Positions 54,721 through 60,700 of a stretch of DNA of 64,000 nt are shown here, one piece after another. The number at the start of each line of letters is the position of its first letter. Position 1 is the stretch's first letter. This stretch comes from the human T2T-CHM13v2.0 reference genome, Homo sapiens, in the NCBI RefSeq assembly GCF_009914755.1, contig NC_060943.1, one strand, 5' to 3'. The notes under the pieces were generated by a model. The model searched no databases. It was not told the DNA's origin and saw nothing but the letters and a program-made list of their open reading frames with translations. The position numbers and the translations under genes were made by a program.

Positions 54721-57700
54721 CCTCTCCACATCCCACTCCTCCTCCTCCTTTCCTCGCCCGGGTCTTTCTTCCTTCTGCCCTCGCTTCCCTTCCCACTTCT
54801 CTTCCCTTTATCTCCCCCGTGTTTTCTGCCTCCCCTCTCCACCTCTCCCCACTTATCTTCAATGTCTCCATTCTACTCTGCGTTTGTTCCTGAATCTGCC
54901 CTTCACCTTCCACCTAAGCTCCTCTCTTTCCTCTGGTCTTTTCACTGTCTCTAAATTTTCTCCAGTTCTTCCTTCCTGATTTCCCATCTTCTGCCCCTCA
55001 TCCATGCGTTCATTATTGCAAGGCATATTTACCTGTGGCCTGCTGTGTGCCCGGCACTGTTCTGAGCACTGGGGATATGGCAGAGAAGGAAACAGACAGA
55101 AGTCCCAGCCCTCGTGGAGGTTATGCTCAAGTGTGCAGAGACAGAAGATAACAGACATGTATGTAGTGTGTTAGGCGTGGTGAGTGCTTTGGAAAGAAAG
55201 AAAATCGGGAAGAGGCCTAAGGTGTATGGGTAGGGAGTGACGATGAATTCTGAGACAGGACAGTCAAGGAAGACCTCACTGAGAGAAGGATCCTTAAATA
55301 AAGACAGGGTGAGCCACTGGAGACCTGGGAAGCCAGCCTGCTGGACAGATAACCGGGCAGGGCCGAAATGCCCAGGTGGGAGTGACTTGGCACGTCTGAG
55401 GCACTGCAAGCAGGTCAGCATGGCTGGAGGGGGGCGTGCACAGGGAAGACAGAAAAATGAGGTCAAAGGAGCAGTGGCGGCCAGCTCTGGTAAGGCCCAT
55501 AAACCACTGGAAGGATTTTTGGCTTTCATTCTGAAAATCAGAATGAGAGTCAGACGGGAATCACTGGGGAGCTTTAGGTAGAGGAGTGCTGTGTTTTCAT
55601 AGGATCACTCTGTGTTGAGAACAGATTGTAGGGAGGCCAAGGCAAGAGCAGGGAGCTCATGGAGGAAGCTATGACAATAACCCGGGCAGGAGATAGGGAT
55701 GGCTGGACCAGAGCAACCTGAGAAAGGTCTGGATTCTGGATATATTCTGAAGGTGGAGCCAATAGGATCTGCTAAGAGATCAGATACGGGGCATGGAAGA
55801 GAGAGAATAGTGAAAGAAAGCTCCAATATTTTGGCCCGAGCAACTGGAAGGACCAAATTGCCTCACAGGTGGGCAGAAGCCCAATGTTGGACACATCGCA
55901 TCACGTGCACACCTATCAGATATCCAAGTGGAGATACCAAGTGTGGAGCTGAAGTTGCAGACCTTGGCTTCAGGGGAGACACATATTTGTGGGTTAAGGC
56001 AGGCAGCCTTCAAGATCCCACCTCCCGCGTCCACGCCCCTGTGTAATCCCCTCTGACACTGTGTCAGAGCTGGTCTGTGTGACCAACAGAATAAGTTTCA
56101 GCCATTGCACATTCTGCTTCCGCCTTGCTCTCTCTGATCACTCGCCCTGGGGGATCTCAGCTGCCATGGTGTGAGGACACTCAAGCAGTCCTTGGAGAGG
56201 TCCTTGTCTGAGGAACTGAGGCCTCCTGCCAACTGCCATGTGAGTGTATTCATCATGTTTTTTATTTTCTGTGTCTTAGGATGTTTTGACACTTTAAACA
56301 TCTTGCAGGCTGGGGAGAGACTACCCCTCCCAGAACTAGCCAAGCCTTAGAGATAGCAGAGGGCTCAGCTGCCTTTCATGTGCAAACCAACCAATCTATA
56401 CCCCCAACCTCCCCCTTTACCTAACTCTCACATACCAAGCCAATATTCTTCCTGACCTAAATCAACCCGGGGCCAGGTACCAGATAAGTAGGGACAGCCC
56501 CTATAGCCCAGAGTCCACTGACATTATCCAAACTGGTGAATCGTAAGCTGTTTCCCCTTCTCCTGGGAAATGTTAAAGAATAAAAATCATTTTTCTTTCT
56601 GTTTCTTTTTGAGACAGTCTCACTCTGTCACCCAGGCTGGAGGGCAGTGGTGCAATCTCGGCTCACTGCAACCTCCACCTCCCAGATTCAAGTAATTCTC
56701 CTGTCTCAGCCTCCTGAGTAGTTGGGACTACAGGTGTCCACCACCATATCTGGCTAATTTTTGTGTTTTCAGTAGAGACAGGGTTTCACCATGTTGGCCA
56801 TGCTGGTCTTGAACTCCTGGCCTCATGTGATCTGCCCTCCTCAGCCTCCCAAAGTGCTTGGATTACAGGCGTGAGCCACCACACCTGGGCAAAAATCATC
56901 TTTCAATGAAATTGGTCTCCATGTTGTCACTTGGCCACCTCCAGAAACTAAAATCCCATGGGGACATTTGGGACAGTGAGCCATCTTAGAACGGAACCCT
57001 CCACCCTTTGTTGAGCCTTCAGACCACAGCAGTCTGGCCAAAAAACATGACTATGACCTCATCAGAGACCCATGGCAGCCAGAAACATCCAGCTAAGCTG
57101 CTCCGAGGCTCTGGACCCACAGAAACTGTGAACCAATGGAAGCTGGCTTTTTAAAAGCTGTTAAGGTCATTTGTTATGATAGCAATAGATAACTAACACA
57201 AGAATCACCAGCACATAGTGGGTCTTAAGAGCCATTTGGCTGGTGGGATCATTGAAGTAGTGGAGAAAGACCGAGAAGAGAAGCAGTCTAAGGACTGAGC
57301 CCTGGAGCCCCACAACAAACAGAGCCTGGGGAGAAAGAGAAACCCAACGAGGGAGCCTGGGAAGGAGTGACCGGAGAAGTGGGAGAAGGGGAAGAAGGGG
57401 CTTTGAGGATTGAGAGTGACTGGCTGTGCCGAAGCCCACTGCTACCTCATATACATGAGGCCTGAGACCGGGAATTTCAGACATGGAAGTTGCTGGTGAC
57501 AAGAGTGGCTTCAGTGGAGTGGCAGGGACCGATGCCAGACTGGAGTGGGGGGCAAGAGGAAATGGGAGGAAAGAAGAAACTGGAAGCATCAGGGAGACCC
57601 CCCACTGCTGCCAAGGCTGTAAAGAGAAGGGAAGAAAGTGGGCGGTGGCTGGGAGGGAAAGTGAGGTCAGGAGAGGGTTTAAGACTGGAGAAATGACAGC

Positions 57701-60700
57701 ATATTTGTACGTTGGTGGCCTGAATCCAATAAAGAGAGGACAACTGATGCTGCAGGAGGAAAGGACAGACTTGCCGGAGGGATGTCCTTGAGAAGGCAAC
57801 CTGGACACGGGTGGAGGGCACCTTTACTAGCAGCATGGACGGCTCCTTCAGAGGAGTCCTTGGGCCAAGTGCAGAACACTGGCAGGCAGCTGGATGCAGA
57901 GCTGGGGTCTGGGGAGTAGATGTAAGGTCAGCCGCTGGATGTGAGGAGGGGGAGGAAGGGCTGGAGGCTGACAGAGAGAGGGGAAGCAGGGAACCAGCAG
58001 TCCAGGGGTGCAAGAGCACGAATGGGTCTGGAAATGCAGGGGTGTGGCTGGGCGGCCCCCAGGGACATGGAAGCAGCCCTCCTGAACACAGTGTGGGACC
58101 AGTCCAGGGCTGTGTCCTCTTCTGGTTCCCTCTGTCACCCAGGCTGGAGTGCAGTGGTGCAATCTCAGCTTACTGCAATCTCCACCTCCCGGGTTCAAGC
58201 GATCCTCCCATCTCAGCCTCCCGAGTAGCTGGGATTACAGGTGTGCACCACCATGCCCGGCTAATTTTTGTATTTTTAGTAGAGATGGGGTTTCACCATG
58301 TTGGCCAGGCTGATCTTGAACTCCTGACCTCAGGTGATCCGCCAGCCTCGGCCTCCCAAAGTGCTGGGATTACAGGTGTGAGCCACTGCACTTGGCCCTG
58401 TTTCTCTTCTTATTTCTTCTTGCTTTTCTGCCTCTGTGGCTCCCCACATCCTGTCCCTCACCTCCTCTCCCTGCATCCTCATTGCTCCCTGTGCCTACTT
58501 TCCCTCCTGTTCTTCCTCACGCGCTGATTCTCTGGCCCCATCAGCTCTCTTACTTCCCCACCTCCTGCATTCCTCTGCCCCCTTCTCGCGATCCCCACCA
58601 CCCTCCAGGTATGGCTCCCAATGCCACAATCTTCACGCACCTCAGCCCCTGGGGGTCCCTGTTCCTGCCCACCCCCACCCCCAGCCTCCTCACCTCCTCG
58701 GACTCAGCTGACCTCCGTGTGGACCATATGAATTCCATGACCGCCACGAAGACAGCAATGATGAGGCCACAGATGAGCACGATAAAAATGCCACCAATGT
58801 TCTCCATGCCCAAACCTGGAGGGCGAAGGGAGTTGGGGGGCAAAGGGAGTTGGGGCTGTGTGGGAAGGGGGCTGGGAGGGGGCTATGGGAAGGGGACACC
58901 ATACGCGGGAACTGACCTTTAGCTCGATGGTCCTCCTCCTTGGGGCACCGGCCCCCCTCCCACCACTTGCGCTTCAGGATCTCCAGCCGGTTGTTCTCCT
59001 GAAGCTGCAGGATGGCCAGTGTGATCTCATCCCGGAACGGGGAGCCTGGGCAGGCACACGAGGGGCTGGACCAGCCATCGGGCCCTGCAGCCCTGACCGC
59101 CCCAAACCCCAAACTGTGCCCTCACCACGGCCTTCCCCCGCCTCTACCACGTGCCCAGGGTCTTCCCTGCAGCCTCTCCTCACCCCCAGCCCAGTCTCCT
59201 CTCAACACAGCAGCCAGAGAGACAGTGTTAGGAAGAGTCAGAGGCCATACCTTTCCTGTGCTCAGGACTCTCCATGGCTTCCTGTTGCAAGCTCCTCCCC
59301 TCGGCCACTCTCAGACACCCTCACCCCCACGGCTCTCAGCTCCAGCCTCATCAGCCTCCTGGCTGCTCCCCAAATTCATCACACACAGTCCTGTCTTAGG
59401 ACCTTTGCCTCTGCCTGGAATGTCCCTCTCCGCACTTCATCCAGGTCTCTGCCCACATGCTGGCTCCCCAGGGAGTCTATTCTGATGACTTTATTTAAAA
59501 TGGCACCAAGCGCCCCACTCCCTGTCAGTGTCTTCCCTTTAATTTACTTTGGAGCAGCTGTCACCACCTAACACTGTATTATATGGCTATGTGTTTATCA
59601 TCTTTCGTCTGCATCCAGTGCGGGACTTGGCATGCAGTTGGACACCAGACGAATCCCCATCCACACCTCTCCCTGGACCACCTCTCCTCCCCAACCTCAC
59701 ATCCTGCCCTTAAGCCATCCTTGGGCTTCAACACCCCACACACCCTATTCTATACTTATTTCTTCATTGACTAAGATACTTCCCGACCAACTACCACAGA
59801 ACCAGAGACACGGGCAGATGAAAGTGATTAATATCTACCAGGCACCAACTGTGTGCCAGACCCTGGGTTTATTCAGGTCTTATGATGATCCTGTGGGACA
59901 GGTATCCCACCTGAGGCAAGTGTTTCTGAATGACGAAAGTGATACACTTGCTTAAGACTGTGCACTGAGTCAGGGAGGAAACTGAGATTTCTTCCTTTCT
60001 TTTGACAGAATCTCACTTGGTTACCCAGGCTGGCATACAGTGGCATGATCATTGTTCACTGCCACCTCCACTTCCTGGGCTCAAGCGATCCTCCTACTTC
60101 AGCCTGTAGCTGAGACTACAGGTGCATACCACACCTGGCTAATTTTTTAATTTTTTGTAAAGACAGGGTCTTGCTATATTGCCCAAGCTGGTCTCAAAAC
60201 TCTTAGGTTCAAGTGATCCTTCCGGCTTGGCCTCCCAAAGCACTGGAATCATAGGCATAAACCACAGTGGCCAGCCGGAACTGGGATTTGAATCCAGGTC
60301 GGTGTGACTCCTGAGCCTGTCCTCCAAGCACCAAGCTACACTGCCTCCCTGGCACCGACTCACCTACAAAGCTGCTAAGATCTGGGGCAATTTGCTATGC
60401 AGTAATAGATAACTAATACAGGTGTCATCAGTACATAAATGATTTTAAAAGCCAAAATGCCAAAATTTGGTGACAATTTGGTCGTGAGTTCCACCACTGA
60501 GTCCTGGAAAAACATGTCCTGGGCCATGCGAGGTGGCTCATACCTGTAATCCCAACACTTTGGGAGGCCAAGGCGGGCGACAGAGCAAGACTCCGTCTCA
60601 AAAAAAAAAAAAAAAAAAAACAAAACACCAAACTTGTCCTGAAATATAAATAGGCACATACAAGTCTCCCTACCAGATCATTCCATCCTTCCCATCCATC

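What the first reader, a model, noticed from the sequence alone, without database searches (positions are those of the whole stretch)
57477..57908. Alternative GluK5 C-terminus is a translated fossil of LINE-2 reverse transcriptase
Seen: inside the last GRIK5 intron a good acceptor (CTGAC at 57927-57931, C/U tract, cag) opens a phase-0 frame of 143 codons, almost the same length as the canonical 142-aa tail. Its last ~68 aa (57480-57683) read [22 protein letters not shown]...[23 protein letters not shown]. Established: CR1/L2-clade RT proteins carry KP.LDP....YRPISLL and P.QSGFRP.HSTETAL.KV.NDL motifs. Neighbouring frames on the same strand give further RT-like blocks: [10 protein letters not shown] (~57700), [11 protein letters not shown] (~57300), a decayed YADD-like tgtgctggtgat (~57205) and GISTW (~55930). 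Established: the canonical GluK5 tail holds an RRRRR ER-retention signal (54578-54592). Inference: a sense-strand L2 was exonised in its own ORF2 frame, giving a kainate-receptor isoform that lacks the retention signal and the canonical tail interactions. I recall the isoform being annotated, but not its RT origin.
Basis: partly seen in the sequence, partly recalled or inferred. Interest (0 to 1): 0.85.

Follow-up and report, generated by a model that had tools for sequence, protein, structure and literature searches.

The report
Rare GluK5 tail from LINE remnant
The alternative last exon of the kainate-receptor gene GRIK5 reads partly through the decayed reverse-transcriptase region of an ancient LINE element, but this isoform is already known, very rarely spliced and poorly conserved, so it is most likely a curiosity.

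Summary
Exon 57148-57908 (minus strand) belongs to curated transcript NM_001301030.2. It encodes the quoted 143-aa tail from residue 839, straight after M4, and so replaces the canonical 142-aa tail that carries RRRRR (862-866).

The reverse-transcriptase (RT) origin is supported at the DNA level. Window 57811-57254 belongs to an old dispersed repeat family. Three copies of that family give Pfam RVT_1 as a sub-threshold hit, always at profile positions 35-99. The coding frame is in phase with the copies' RT frame in two blocks: [17 protein letters not shown] and [17 protein letters not shown]. About 21 codons between the blocks could not be assigned. Upstream, the element is read out of frame. 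The stop codon falls before the catalytic motifs.

Protein-level tests on the window itself failed (Pfam, phmmer, the Atlas and the word searches). The name "L2" rests on recalled motifs only.

The functional inference is not supported. A published RNA-seq survey (PMC8257547) calls the isoform GluK5-b. It reports junction abundance below 1% (5% in the 'cerebellum' dataset) and poor conservation in chimpanzee and macaque, and finds no homologous exon in rat or mouse. Long open frames are also common at this locus.

Verdict: a real but ordinary LINE-derived, rarely used terminal exon. Interest is low.

The parts
57909..57931 (-). 3' splice site of the alternative last exon. It has a branch-point-like CTGAC (57927-57931), a pyrimidine-rich tract and AG at 57910-57909.
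   Evidence: Read directly. The exon boundary comes from RefSeq. The site lies outside the detectable repeat, because no copy aligns upstream of 57811.
57477..57908 (-). Coding part of the alternative last exon: the 143-aa GluK5-b tail plus a TGA stop. It begins at residue 839 in phase 0.
   Evidence: The isoform is named GluK5-b (981 aa) in PMC8257547.
57148..57476 (-). 3' UTR of the alternative exon. It holds the continuation of the LINE RT region (to about 57254) and the start of a nested, different repeat (from about 57219).
57684..57811 (-). LINE-derived DNA that the coding frame reads out of the element's ORF2 frame (tail residues about 33-75). The ORF2-like frame here is that of the 213-aa ORF (..[12 protein letters not shown]).
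   Evidence: 16 of 33 fetched loci align here at 62-71% identity. The open 95-aa frame of L014 is in phase with the 213-aa-ORF frame.
57615..57680 (-). Block 1 (K77-A98, [22 protein letters not shown]), where the coding frame is in phase with the element's RT frame.
   Evidence: The alignment to L057 is ungapped here apart from one codon. It stays in phase with the L057 frame that reads KISLRFIYSSSYYPISLLLFTA and runs on into the RVT_1-positive piece.
57552..57614 (-). About 21 codons (L99-C119) whose relation to the RT frame could not be settled, because of indels against every copy compared.
   Evidence: The phase tracks change here.
57480..57551 (-). Block 2 (P120-V143, [24 protein letters not shown]), where the coding frame is in phase with the RT frame. 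It corresponds to about RVT_1 profile positions 36-62.
   Evidence: It is in phase in 4 of 5 copies. BLASTP against the RVT_1-positive piece of L061 gives E=3e-4. Shuffle test.
57254..57476 (-). Continuation of the LINE RT region beyond the stop codon. It is not translated, and its frames were not assigned.
   Evidence: Colinear blastn hits to L061, L065, L003 and L032.
56972..57219 (.). A nested copy of a different dispersed repeat family. The annotated transcript end (57148) lies inside it.
   Evidence: 39 non-self matches among 40 scored of 87 candidates, at 67-86% identity.
56569..56893 (.). Alu insertion.
   Evidence: Listed as a masked repeat. It gives Alu-like hits at 70-87% identity to many loci.
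56119..56565 (.). Further nested repeats of other families.
   Evidence: 984 candidates, of which 40 were scored.
55500..55954 (-). A later part of the same LINE element, colinear and in the same orientation as in other copies. It includes the GISTW block.
   Evidence: (ORF84 against L065, E=0.005).
54578..54592 (-). RRRRR (residues 862-866) in the canonical last exon. The alternative tail does not have it.
   Evidence: The review PMC4194049 gives it as a COPI-binding ER-retention motif.

Best explanation
An ancient LINE element, most likely L2, lies in sense orientation in the last GRIK5 intron. It is now broken up by later insertions. A weakly used acceptor about 100 bp upstream of it creates an alternative terminal exon.

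The open frame entering from exon 58694-58815 passes through three kinds of sequence:
1. About 32 codons of sequence with no detectable origin.
2. About 43 codons of LINE DNA read out of the element's ORF2 frame.
3. After an indel at an A-run, the element's own RT frame, through the N-terminal 'fingers' motifs (the RP.S block and the QSG..HST block).

A TGA then ends the frame before the catalytic motifs. The tail is therefore partly a translated RT fossil, but it has no possible RT activity. The frame is open by chance in C/T-rich DNA.

Published RNA-seq shows the junction is used in under 1% of transcripts. The exon decays like neutral DNA, so the isoform is most likely splicing noise without a selected function.

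Shown: the anatomy, family membership at DNA level, the frame relations for the two blocks, and the annotation. Inferred: the L2 clade name, the age, and the lack of function.
For: Sequence and annotation.

Family membership:
- A genome-wide DNA hit at E=4e-6.
- Four genome-wide protein hits at E<0.03.
- 16 of 33 loci align to 57811-57618 at 62-71% identity, and the copies resemble one another.
- RT-centred 1-kb segments of 29 loci, chosen without reference to the window, hit 57276-57779 in 6 loci (8 of the 45 HSPs outside masked repeats; 2295 HSPs in all). All six are in the orientation that puts RT sense on the minus strand.

The family carries an RT:
- RVT_1 was the best or only Pfam hit for pieces of L057 (E=0.002), L061 (0.047) and L038 (0.092), all at profile positions 35-99.
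- RVT_1 was the only family hit by more than one of 123 pieces.
- The L038 piece finds 139 matches at E<=0.1 among 150 scored of 643 candidates.

Frames:
- Phase tracking.
- BLASTP E=3e-4 and E=0.003.
- Shuffle test: z=4.7 with 0 of 500 shuffles reaching the score for the coding frame, against z=0.9 and 0.7 for the other two frames.

Low use and poor conservation: passages of PMC8257547.

Chance ORFs.

Nested insertions.
Against: - Pfam finds no RVT_1 in the tail, in its last 68 aa, or in the 213-aa and 84-aa ORFs, even at E<=10.
- Every RVT_1 hit in copies is below the gathering score of 29.6 bits.
- phmmer with six single RT pieces against all 1936 six-frame pieces of the window does not single out the tail. 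The best result is rank 2 at E=2.1.
- tblastn hits barely exceed those of shuffled queries: 18 against 11.7 at E<=1.
- BLASTP of the tail against the L038 and L057 pieces is not significant.
- The window was not among the 139 matches of the L038 piece.
- No natural L2 or CR1 RT protein could be retrieved. The clade name therefore rests on recalled motifs.
- The list of masked repeats has no stretch of 100 bp or more over the exon. That mask covers only 38% of chr19 and also misses the 55500-55954 part.
- Some loci in the shuffle test were first found through the tail itself.
Confidence: 0.8

Rival explanations
1. GluK5-b is a genuine, translated, primate-specific subunit. Its LINE-derived tail removes the RRRRR/COPI retention signal and the canonical tail interactions, which changes surface delivery of kainate receptors, perhaps in the cerebellum.
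For: The exon is in a curated RefSeq transcript. The frame is intact and joins in phase directly after M4. The tail lacks RRRRR, and that motif is a documented ER-retention and COPI-binding signal. Junction abundance rises to 5% in the 'cerebellum' dataset. C-terminal splicing controls trafficking in GluK1-3.
Against: PMC8257547 reports junction abundance below 1% overall, poor conservation and rare detection in chimpanzee and macaque, no homologous exon in rat or mouse, and no experimental data. A second retention motif (RXR in a loop) stays in the isoform. Open frames of this length occur by chance at the locus. There is no canonical poly(A) signal in the 40 nt before the annotated end.
Confidence: 0.06
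2. The RT likeness is a chance product of C/T-rich, low-complexity sequence, and the exon is not derived from a LINE RT region.
For: Pfam, phmmer, the Atlas and the word searches all give nothing for the window itself. Peptides rich in S, L, P and F give look-alikes in two frames. Shuffled queries give many weak tblastn hits. No masked repeat is listed over the exon.
Against: DNA alignments of 78-203 bp to six independently chosen RT loci cluster in one 500-bp stretch of the 64-kb window. They are colinear and correctly oriented. The downstream part of the element follows colinearly. The shuffle test is frame-specific. Conserved words such as PLQSG and LLFTA are in phase with an RVT_1-positive frame.
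Confidence: 0.05
3. The element is an ancient LINE of another clade (CR1/L3 or another old family), not L2. Everything else stays as in the best explanation.
For: No clade-level test could be run, because no natural RT protein was retrieved and PDB gave nothing. RVT_1 is a generic model.
Against: The conserved words seen in the copies (..PLQSGF....STETA..VKVT[ND]D....LLDLS.AFDTVD..) fit what I recall of L2 rather than CR1 or L1. This is recall, not a test. The family is very numerous (643 candidates) and its copies are 60-75% identical to one another, which fits L2.
Confidence: 0.1

Closest known systems
Exonisation of ancient transposed elements (L2, MIR, CR1) in human genes, and transposed elements inside last exons (Sela et al. 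2007, PMC2394776; passages read)
   Same: An old intronic element contributes sequence to an alternatively used exon of a conserved gene. Such exons are mostly minor isoforms, and few add real protein function.
   Different: Here the exon is an alternative terminal exon. The acceptor lies outside the detectable element. The element is in sense orientation, and part of the coding frame coincides with the element's own RT frame.
C-terminal splice isoforms of kainate receptor subunits GluK1a-d, GluK2a-c and GluK3a/b (review PMC4194049; passages read)
   Same: An alternative cytoplasmic tail after M4 adds or removes ER-retention or forward-trafficking motifs.
   Different: Those isoforms have trafficking effects described in the review. 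GluK5-b has a junction abundance below 1%, is poorly conserved, and has no experimental data (PMC8257547).
GRIK2 (d) early-termination exon containing an AluSp element (PMC8257547; passage read)
   Same: A repeat-bearing alternative terminal exon in a kainate receptor gene, seen in human RNA-seq.
   Different: That exon truncates the subunit and comes from a young primate SINE. The GRIK5 exon keeps a full-length subunit and comes from a very old LINE RT region.

Membership tests
L2 / CR1-group LINE (non-LTR retrotransposon) remnant | Many dispersed, strongly diverged copies in the genome | tested here: met
   16 of 33 loci align to 57811-57618. The L038 piece has 139 matches at E<=0.1 among 150 scored of 643 candidates.
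L2 / CR1-group LINE (non-LTR retrotransposon) remnant | Family members encode a reverse transcriptase domain (Pfam RVT_1) | tested here: inconclusive
   Three copies hit RVT_1 at E=0.002, 0.047 and 0.092, always at profile positions 35-99. RVT_1 was the only family with more than one member among 123 pieces. All hits are below the gathering score of 29.6 bits.
L2 / CR1-group LINE (non-LTR retrotransposon) remnant | RT domain recognisable in the window's own copy | tested here: not met
   No RVT_1 at E<=10 for the tail, its last 68 aa, the 213-aa ORF or the 84-aa ORF. phmmer is not significant. Homology is shown only through DNA alignment and phase.
L2 / CR1-group LINE (non-LTR retrotransposon) remnant | Clade assignment to L2 by comparison with curated or natural L2 ORF2 sequences | not testable with these tools
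   No natural RT protein was retrieved. PDB gave nothing. No Dfam or RepeatMasker was on hand. The name rests on recalled motifs.
L2 / CR1-group LINE (non-LTR retrotransposon) remnant | Colinear continuation into the 3' part of the element | tested here: met
   55954-55500 aligns downstream of the RT region, in the same orientation, in many copies. The gap is filled by nested repeats.
Transposed-element exonisation | An annotated spliced exon that overlaps the element, in frame with the host coding sequence | tested here: met
   NM_001301030.2 and two XM models. Phase 0 at residue 839.
Transposed-element exonisation | Splice site supplied by the element | tested here: not met
   The acceptor AG at 57910-57909 lies about 100 bp upstream of the last detectable repeat similarity at 57811.
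Functional kainate-receptor C-terminal isoform | Appreciable abundance and conservation across species | tested here: not met
   Not computed here; taken from PMC8257547. Junction below 1% (5% in the 'cerebellum' dataset), poorly conserved in chimpanzee and macaque, no homologous exon in rat or mouse. Its Fig. S17 is a supplement that I could not see.
Functional kainate-receptor C-terminal isoform | Protein detected, and an effect on trafficking | not testable with these tools
   PMC8257547 states that no experimental data have been reported.
Active or domesticated reverse transcriptase | Catalytic palm motifs (A and C, the Y.DD box) in the translated frame | tested here: not met
   The TGA at 57479-57477 ends the frame at about RVT_1 profile position 62. 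The rest of the RT region lies in the 3' UTR.

The most novel reading that the evidence does not exclude
GluK5-b is translated in a specific cell type, for example a cerebellar one. Its tail, which ends in fossil RT 'fingers' motifs of an ancient LINE, frees the subunit from RRRRR/COPI retention. This would give primates a kainate-receptor subunit with altered assembly control or surface delivery.
Probability: 0.05. Interest if true: 0.6.

Novelty: new member of a known kind. Interest (0 to 1): 0.2.

Why it matters
If the reading holds, it is a neat worked example: a very old LINE reverse-transcriptase region can still be read partly in its own frame, inside an annotated isoform of a well-studied synaptic receptor. 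It also explains why the GluK5-b tail resembles nothing else in glutamate receptors and why it is poorly conserved.

It does not open a new question about kainate receptors, because published data show that the isoform is negligible in amount. Its practical value is for annotation. The tail should be flagged as repeat-derived and treated with caution in variant interpretation.

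Tried and rejected
Tests that led nowhere:
- Pfam on the window's own frames found no RVT_1.
- The ESM Atlas gave no usable hit on tail residues 70-143.
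- Three word-index protein searches (the tail, the L038 piece, the L057 piece) were all blank, partly because of the length and three-word limits. No natural L2 or CR1 RT was obtained.
- Three PDB sequence searches gave nothing relevant.
- Regex screens for RT motifs downstream of the first 16 copies found essentially nothing.
- A Pfam scan of ten pieces from those copies found nothing.
- tblastn of window peptides against the RT loci barely exceeded shuffled controls.
- phmmer of single RT pieces against the whole window in six frames was not significant.
- A paper search for four recalled motif words found 0 papers.
- Paper searches linking GRIK5 with exonisation, LINE-2 or transposable elements found 0, 0 and 1 irrelevant paper.

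Readings I considered and dropped:
- I first took the wrong L014 piece for its ORF2-like frame. I corrected this.
- I considered that the 213-aa-ORF frame, rather than the coding frame, carries the RP.S block (suggested). I dropped this because the near-ungapped L057 alignment keeps the coding frame in phase with ..YYPISLLLFTA... The placement of the L014 gap is ambiguous.
I claim neither.
- The missing repeat mask over the exon is weak evidence. The list covers only 38% of chr19 and also misses the 55500-55954 part.

Full report
**1. What is in the sequence**

The canonical last exon (54233-54661) gives 142 residues, with RRRRR at 54578-54592.

RefSeq uses exon 57148-57908 in the curated transcript NM_001301030.2 and in two Gnomon models. 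Summing the coding exons shows that both last exons start in phase 0 at residue 839. That is right after the M4 helix and [10 protein letters not shown]. The proteins are 981 and 980 residues long, and RRRRR falls at 862-866.

The acceptor is as described: CTGAC at 57927-57931, a pyrimidine-rich tract, and AG at 57910-57909. The neighbouring-frame strings are all present. One small correction: the 68 codons 57480-57683 begin with L76, and K is residue 77.

**2. Is the tail RT-derived? Negative results first**

- Pfam finds no family, at E up to 10, in the tail, in its last 68 residues or in the 84-aa ORF. In the 213-aa ORF it finds no RVT_1, only a weak chance hit to DltX (E=0.098).
- The Atlas gave no usable hit.
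- The three permitted word-index protein searches were blank. No natural L2 or CR1 reverse transcriptase could be brought in for comparison.
- PDB searches gave nothing.
- The list of masked repeats has only Alus near here (56569-56893 and 58124-58442) and nothing over the exon. That list covers only 38% of chr19 and also misses a stretch that clearly is repeat (see section 5). I give it little weight.

**3. DNA-level evidence for a repeat family**

- The exon has one genome-wide DNA hit over 57799-57678 (E=4e-6).
- The tail has 29 weak six-frame hits in the genome. Four have E<0.03, and nearly all fall over residues 20-99.
- Of the 33 loci fetched at that point, 16 align to 57811-57618 at 62-71% identity. 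They also align to one another over up to about 500 bp at 60-80% identity. This marks an old dispersed element longer than a SINE.
- Following the copies downstream led to pieces with recognisable RT words.
- One such piece (L038, 145 aa) has 139 matches at E<=0.1 among 150 scored of 643 candidates in the genome. The window itself was not among them.

**4. The family carries an RT**

- Pieces of three different copies give RVT_1 as their best or only Pfam hit, always at the same profile positions:
  - L057: E=0.002, 18.3 bits, positions 37-95.
  - L061: E=0.047, positions 36-97.
  - L038: E=0.092, positions 35-99.
- In a scan of 123 open-frame pieces from 25 loci, RVT_1 was the only family hit by more than one piece (2 of 123).
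- Every hit is below Pfam's gathering score. The case rests on the three agreeing, not on any single one.
- That the clade is L2 is my recollection of its conserved words. It was not tested.

**5. An unbiased look at the window**

I ran the RT-centred 1-kb segments of 29 loci against the whole 64-kb window. These loci had been chosen with the L038 piece, not with the window.

- Of 2295 HSPs, 45 lie outside masked repeats. Most of those are short fragments matched by many loci at a few spots next to masked repeats, probably Alu pieces.
- Eight HSPs, from 6 loci, fall in 57276-57779 (E from 1e-9 to 1e-3). All are in the orientation that puts the RT sense on the minus strand.
- In many copies a second block, 55954-55500, follows colinearly.
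- In the window the two blocks are pushed about 1.2 kb further apart than in L065 by nested repeats: another family at 57219-56972, an Alu, and further families at 56565-56119.

**6. Frames**

- L057 aligns to 57712-57625 without gaps, apart from one codon. It stays in phase with the L057 frame that reads ..KISLRFIYSSSYYPISLLLFTAKRL*RVGH..IPLQSGFYSDH..LILLDLSGAFDTVD... The second half of that frame is the RVT_1-positive piece.
- Against this frame the window's coding frame reads [22 protein letters not shown] (10 of 22 identical) and, further on, PLQSG.
- The block [14 protein letters not shown] is in phase with the RT frame in 4 of 5 copies. It also aligns to the RVT_1-positive piece of L061 by BLASTP (E=3e-4).
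- The roughly 21 codons between the two blocks change phase against every copy, and I leave them unassigned.
- Upstream of the A-run at 57684-57678, the open 95-aa frame of L014 is in phase with the window's 213-aa-ORF frame (PTYKYAVI against PTYRLAVI; BLASTP E=0.003).
- Shuffle test: I summed local alignment scores against 16 RT-frame pieces. Tail residues 76-143 gave z=4.7, with 0 of 500 shuffles reaching the score. The other two frames of the same DNA gave z=0.9 and 0.7, and residues 1-75 gave z=1.2. Caveat: I chose the pieces, and some of their loci were first found through the tail.
- Weaker tests did not reach significance: tblastn gave 18 hits at E<=1 against 11.7 for shuffles, and phmmer was not significant.

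**7. What the tail is not**

- The frame stops at about RVT_1 profile position 62, before the catalytic motifs. The rest of the RT region lies in the 3' UTR. RT activity is therefore out of the question.
- The length of the open frame is no sign of selection. ORFs of 180, 213 and 238 aa overlap here in three frames.
- Pairwise identities of about 60-71% between copies suggest an age of roughly 100 million years or more. This is an inference, based on a Jukes-Cantor distance of about 0.4 between copies and a neutral rate of about 2e-9 per site per year. It is biased young because only the best-matching copies are seen.

**8. Literature**

- PMC8257547 (passages read) names this isoform GluK5-b (981 aa) and says it was first mentioned in a 2010 review. 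The paper makes these points:
  - no experimental data have been reported for the isoform;
  - junction abundance is below 1%, and 5% in the 'cerebellum' dataset;
  - rat and mouse have no homologous exon;
  - the amount in human brain is negligible.
- Its main text holds no word beginning 'transpos', 'retrotranspos' or 'exoniz'.
- PMC4194049 (passages read) documents RRRRR 862-866 as a COPI-binding ER-retention motif. It also describes a second RXR motif in an intracellular loop, which the isoform would keep.
- Searches for GRIK5 with 'exonization', with 'LINE-2', and with 'transposable element' plus 'isoform' plus 'C-terminus' found 0, 0 and 1 irrelevant paper. NM_001301030 appears in 2 papers, in the one I opened (PMC8708351) only as a transcript label.
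- Within the searchable library, then, I found no statement of the RT origin. Catalogues of repeat-derived exons held in supplements could contain it.
- Exonisation of L2 and other old elements, and repeats inside last exons, are an established category (PMC2394776, passages read).

**9. Verdict**

The RT-fossil reading is largely right, but it holds for two in-frame blocks rather than for 68 continuous residues, and it rests on DNA-level homology. The clade name is untested. The functional reading is not supported. This is a new, tidy example of a known kind of event in an isoform that is already described and negligible in amount.

Noticed in passing
window 57148-57190 (minus strand): There is no AATAAA or ATTAAA in the 40 nt upstream of the annotated transcript end at 57148. 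The end sits at a short A-run (ttttaaaaag), inside a nested repeat of another family. The 3' end of the RefSeq model may not be a true poly(A) site.
   Followed up: partly
window 57167-58527, both strands: Three long open frames overlap at one locus: 180 aa and 213 aa on the minus strand and 238 aa on the plus strand. At most one can be coding, so this C/T-rich DNA throws up long ORFs by chance.
   Followed up: partly
window 56119-57219: The LINE remnant is split by at least three later insertions. These are an old dispersed family at 57219-56972 (about 67-86% identity to 39 other places), an Alu at 56893-56569, and further families at 56565-56219 and 56247-56119. I did not name the families.
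   Followed up: partly
window 57480-57836 (tail from residue 25): The ESM Atlas says it holds this exact peptide from residue 25 on, read as starting with M. The record may come from human DNA in some sample. I did not look at it further.
   Followed up: no
window 55000-55204: Another stretch near the canonical last exon matches several of the fetched loci (L003, L018, L043, L055, L073) at 62-71% identity. It could be the far 3' end of the same LINE or another old repeat.
   Followed up: no
chr19 annotation outside the window (GRIK5 models XM_054320748 to XM_054320751): Gnomon predicts several other truncating alternative terminal exons of GRIK5 further upstream in the gene, which would end the protein early.
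   Followed up: no
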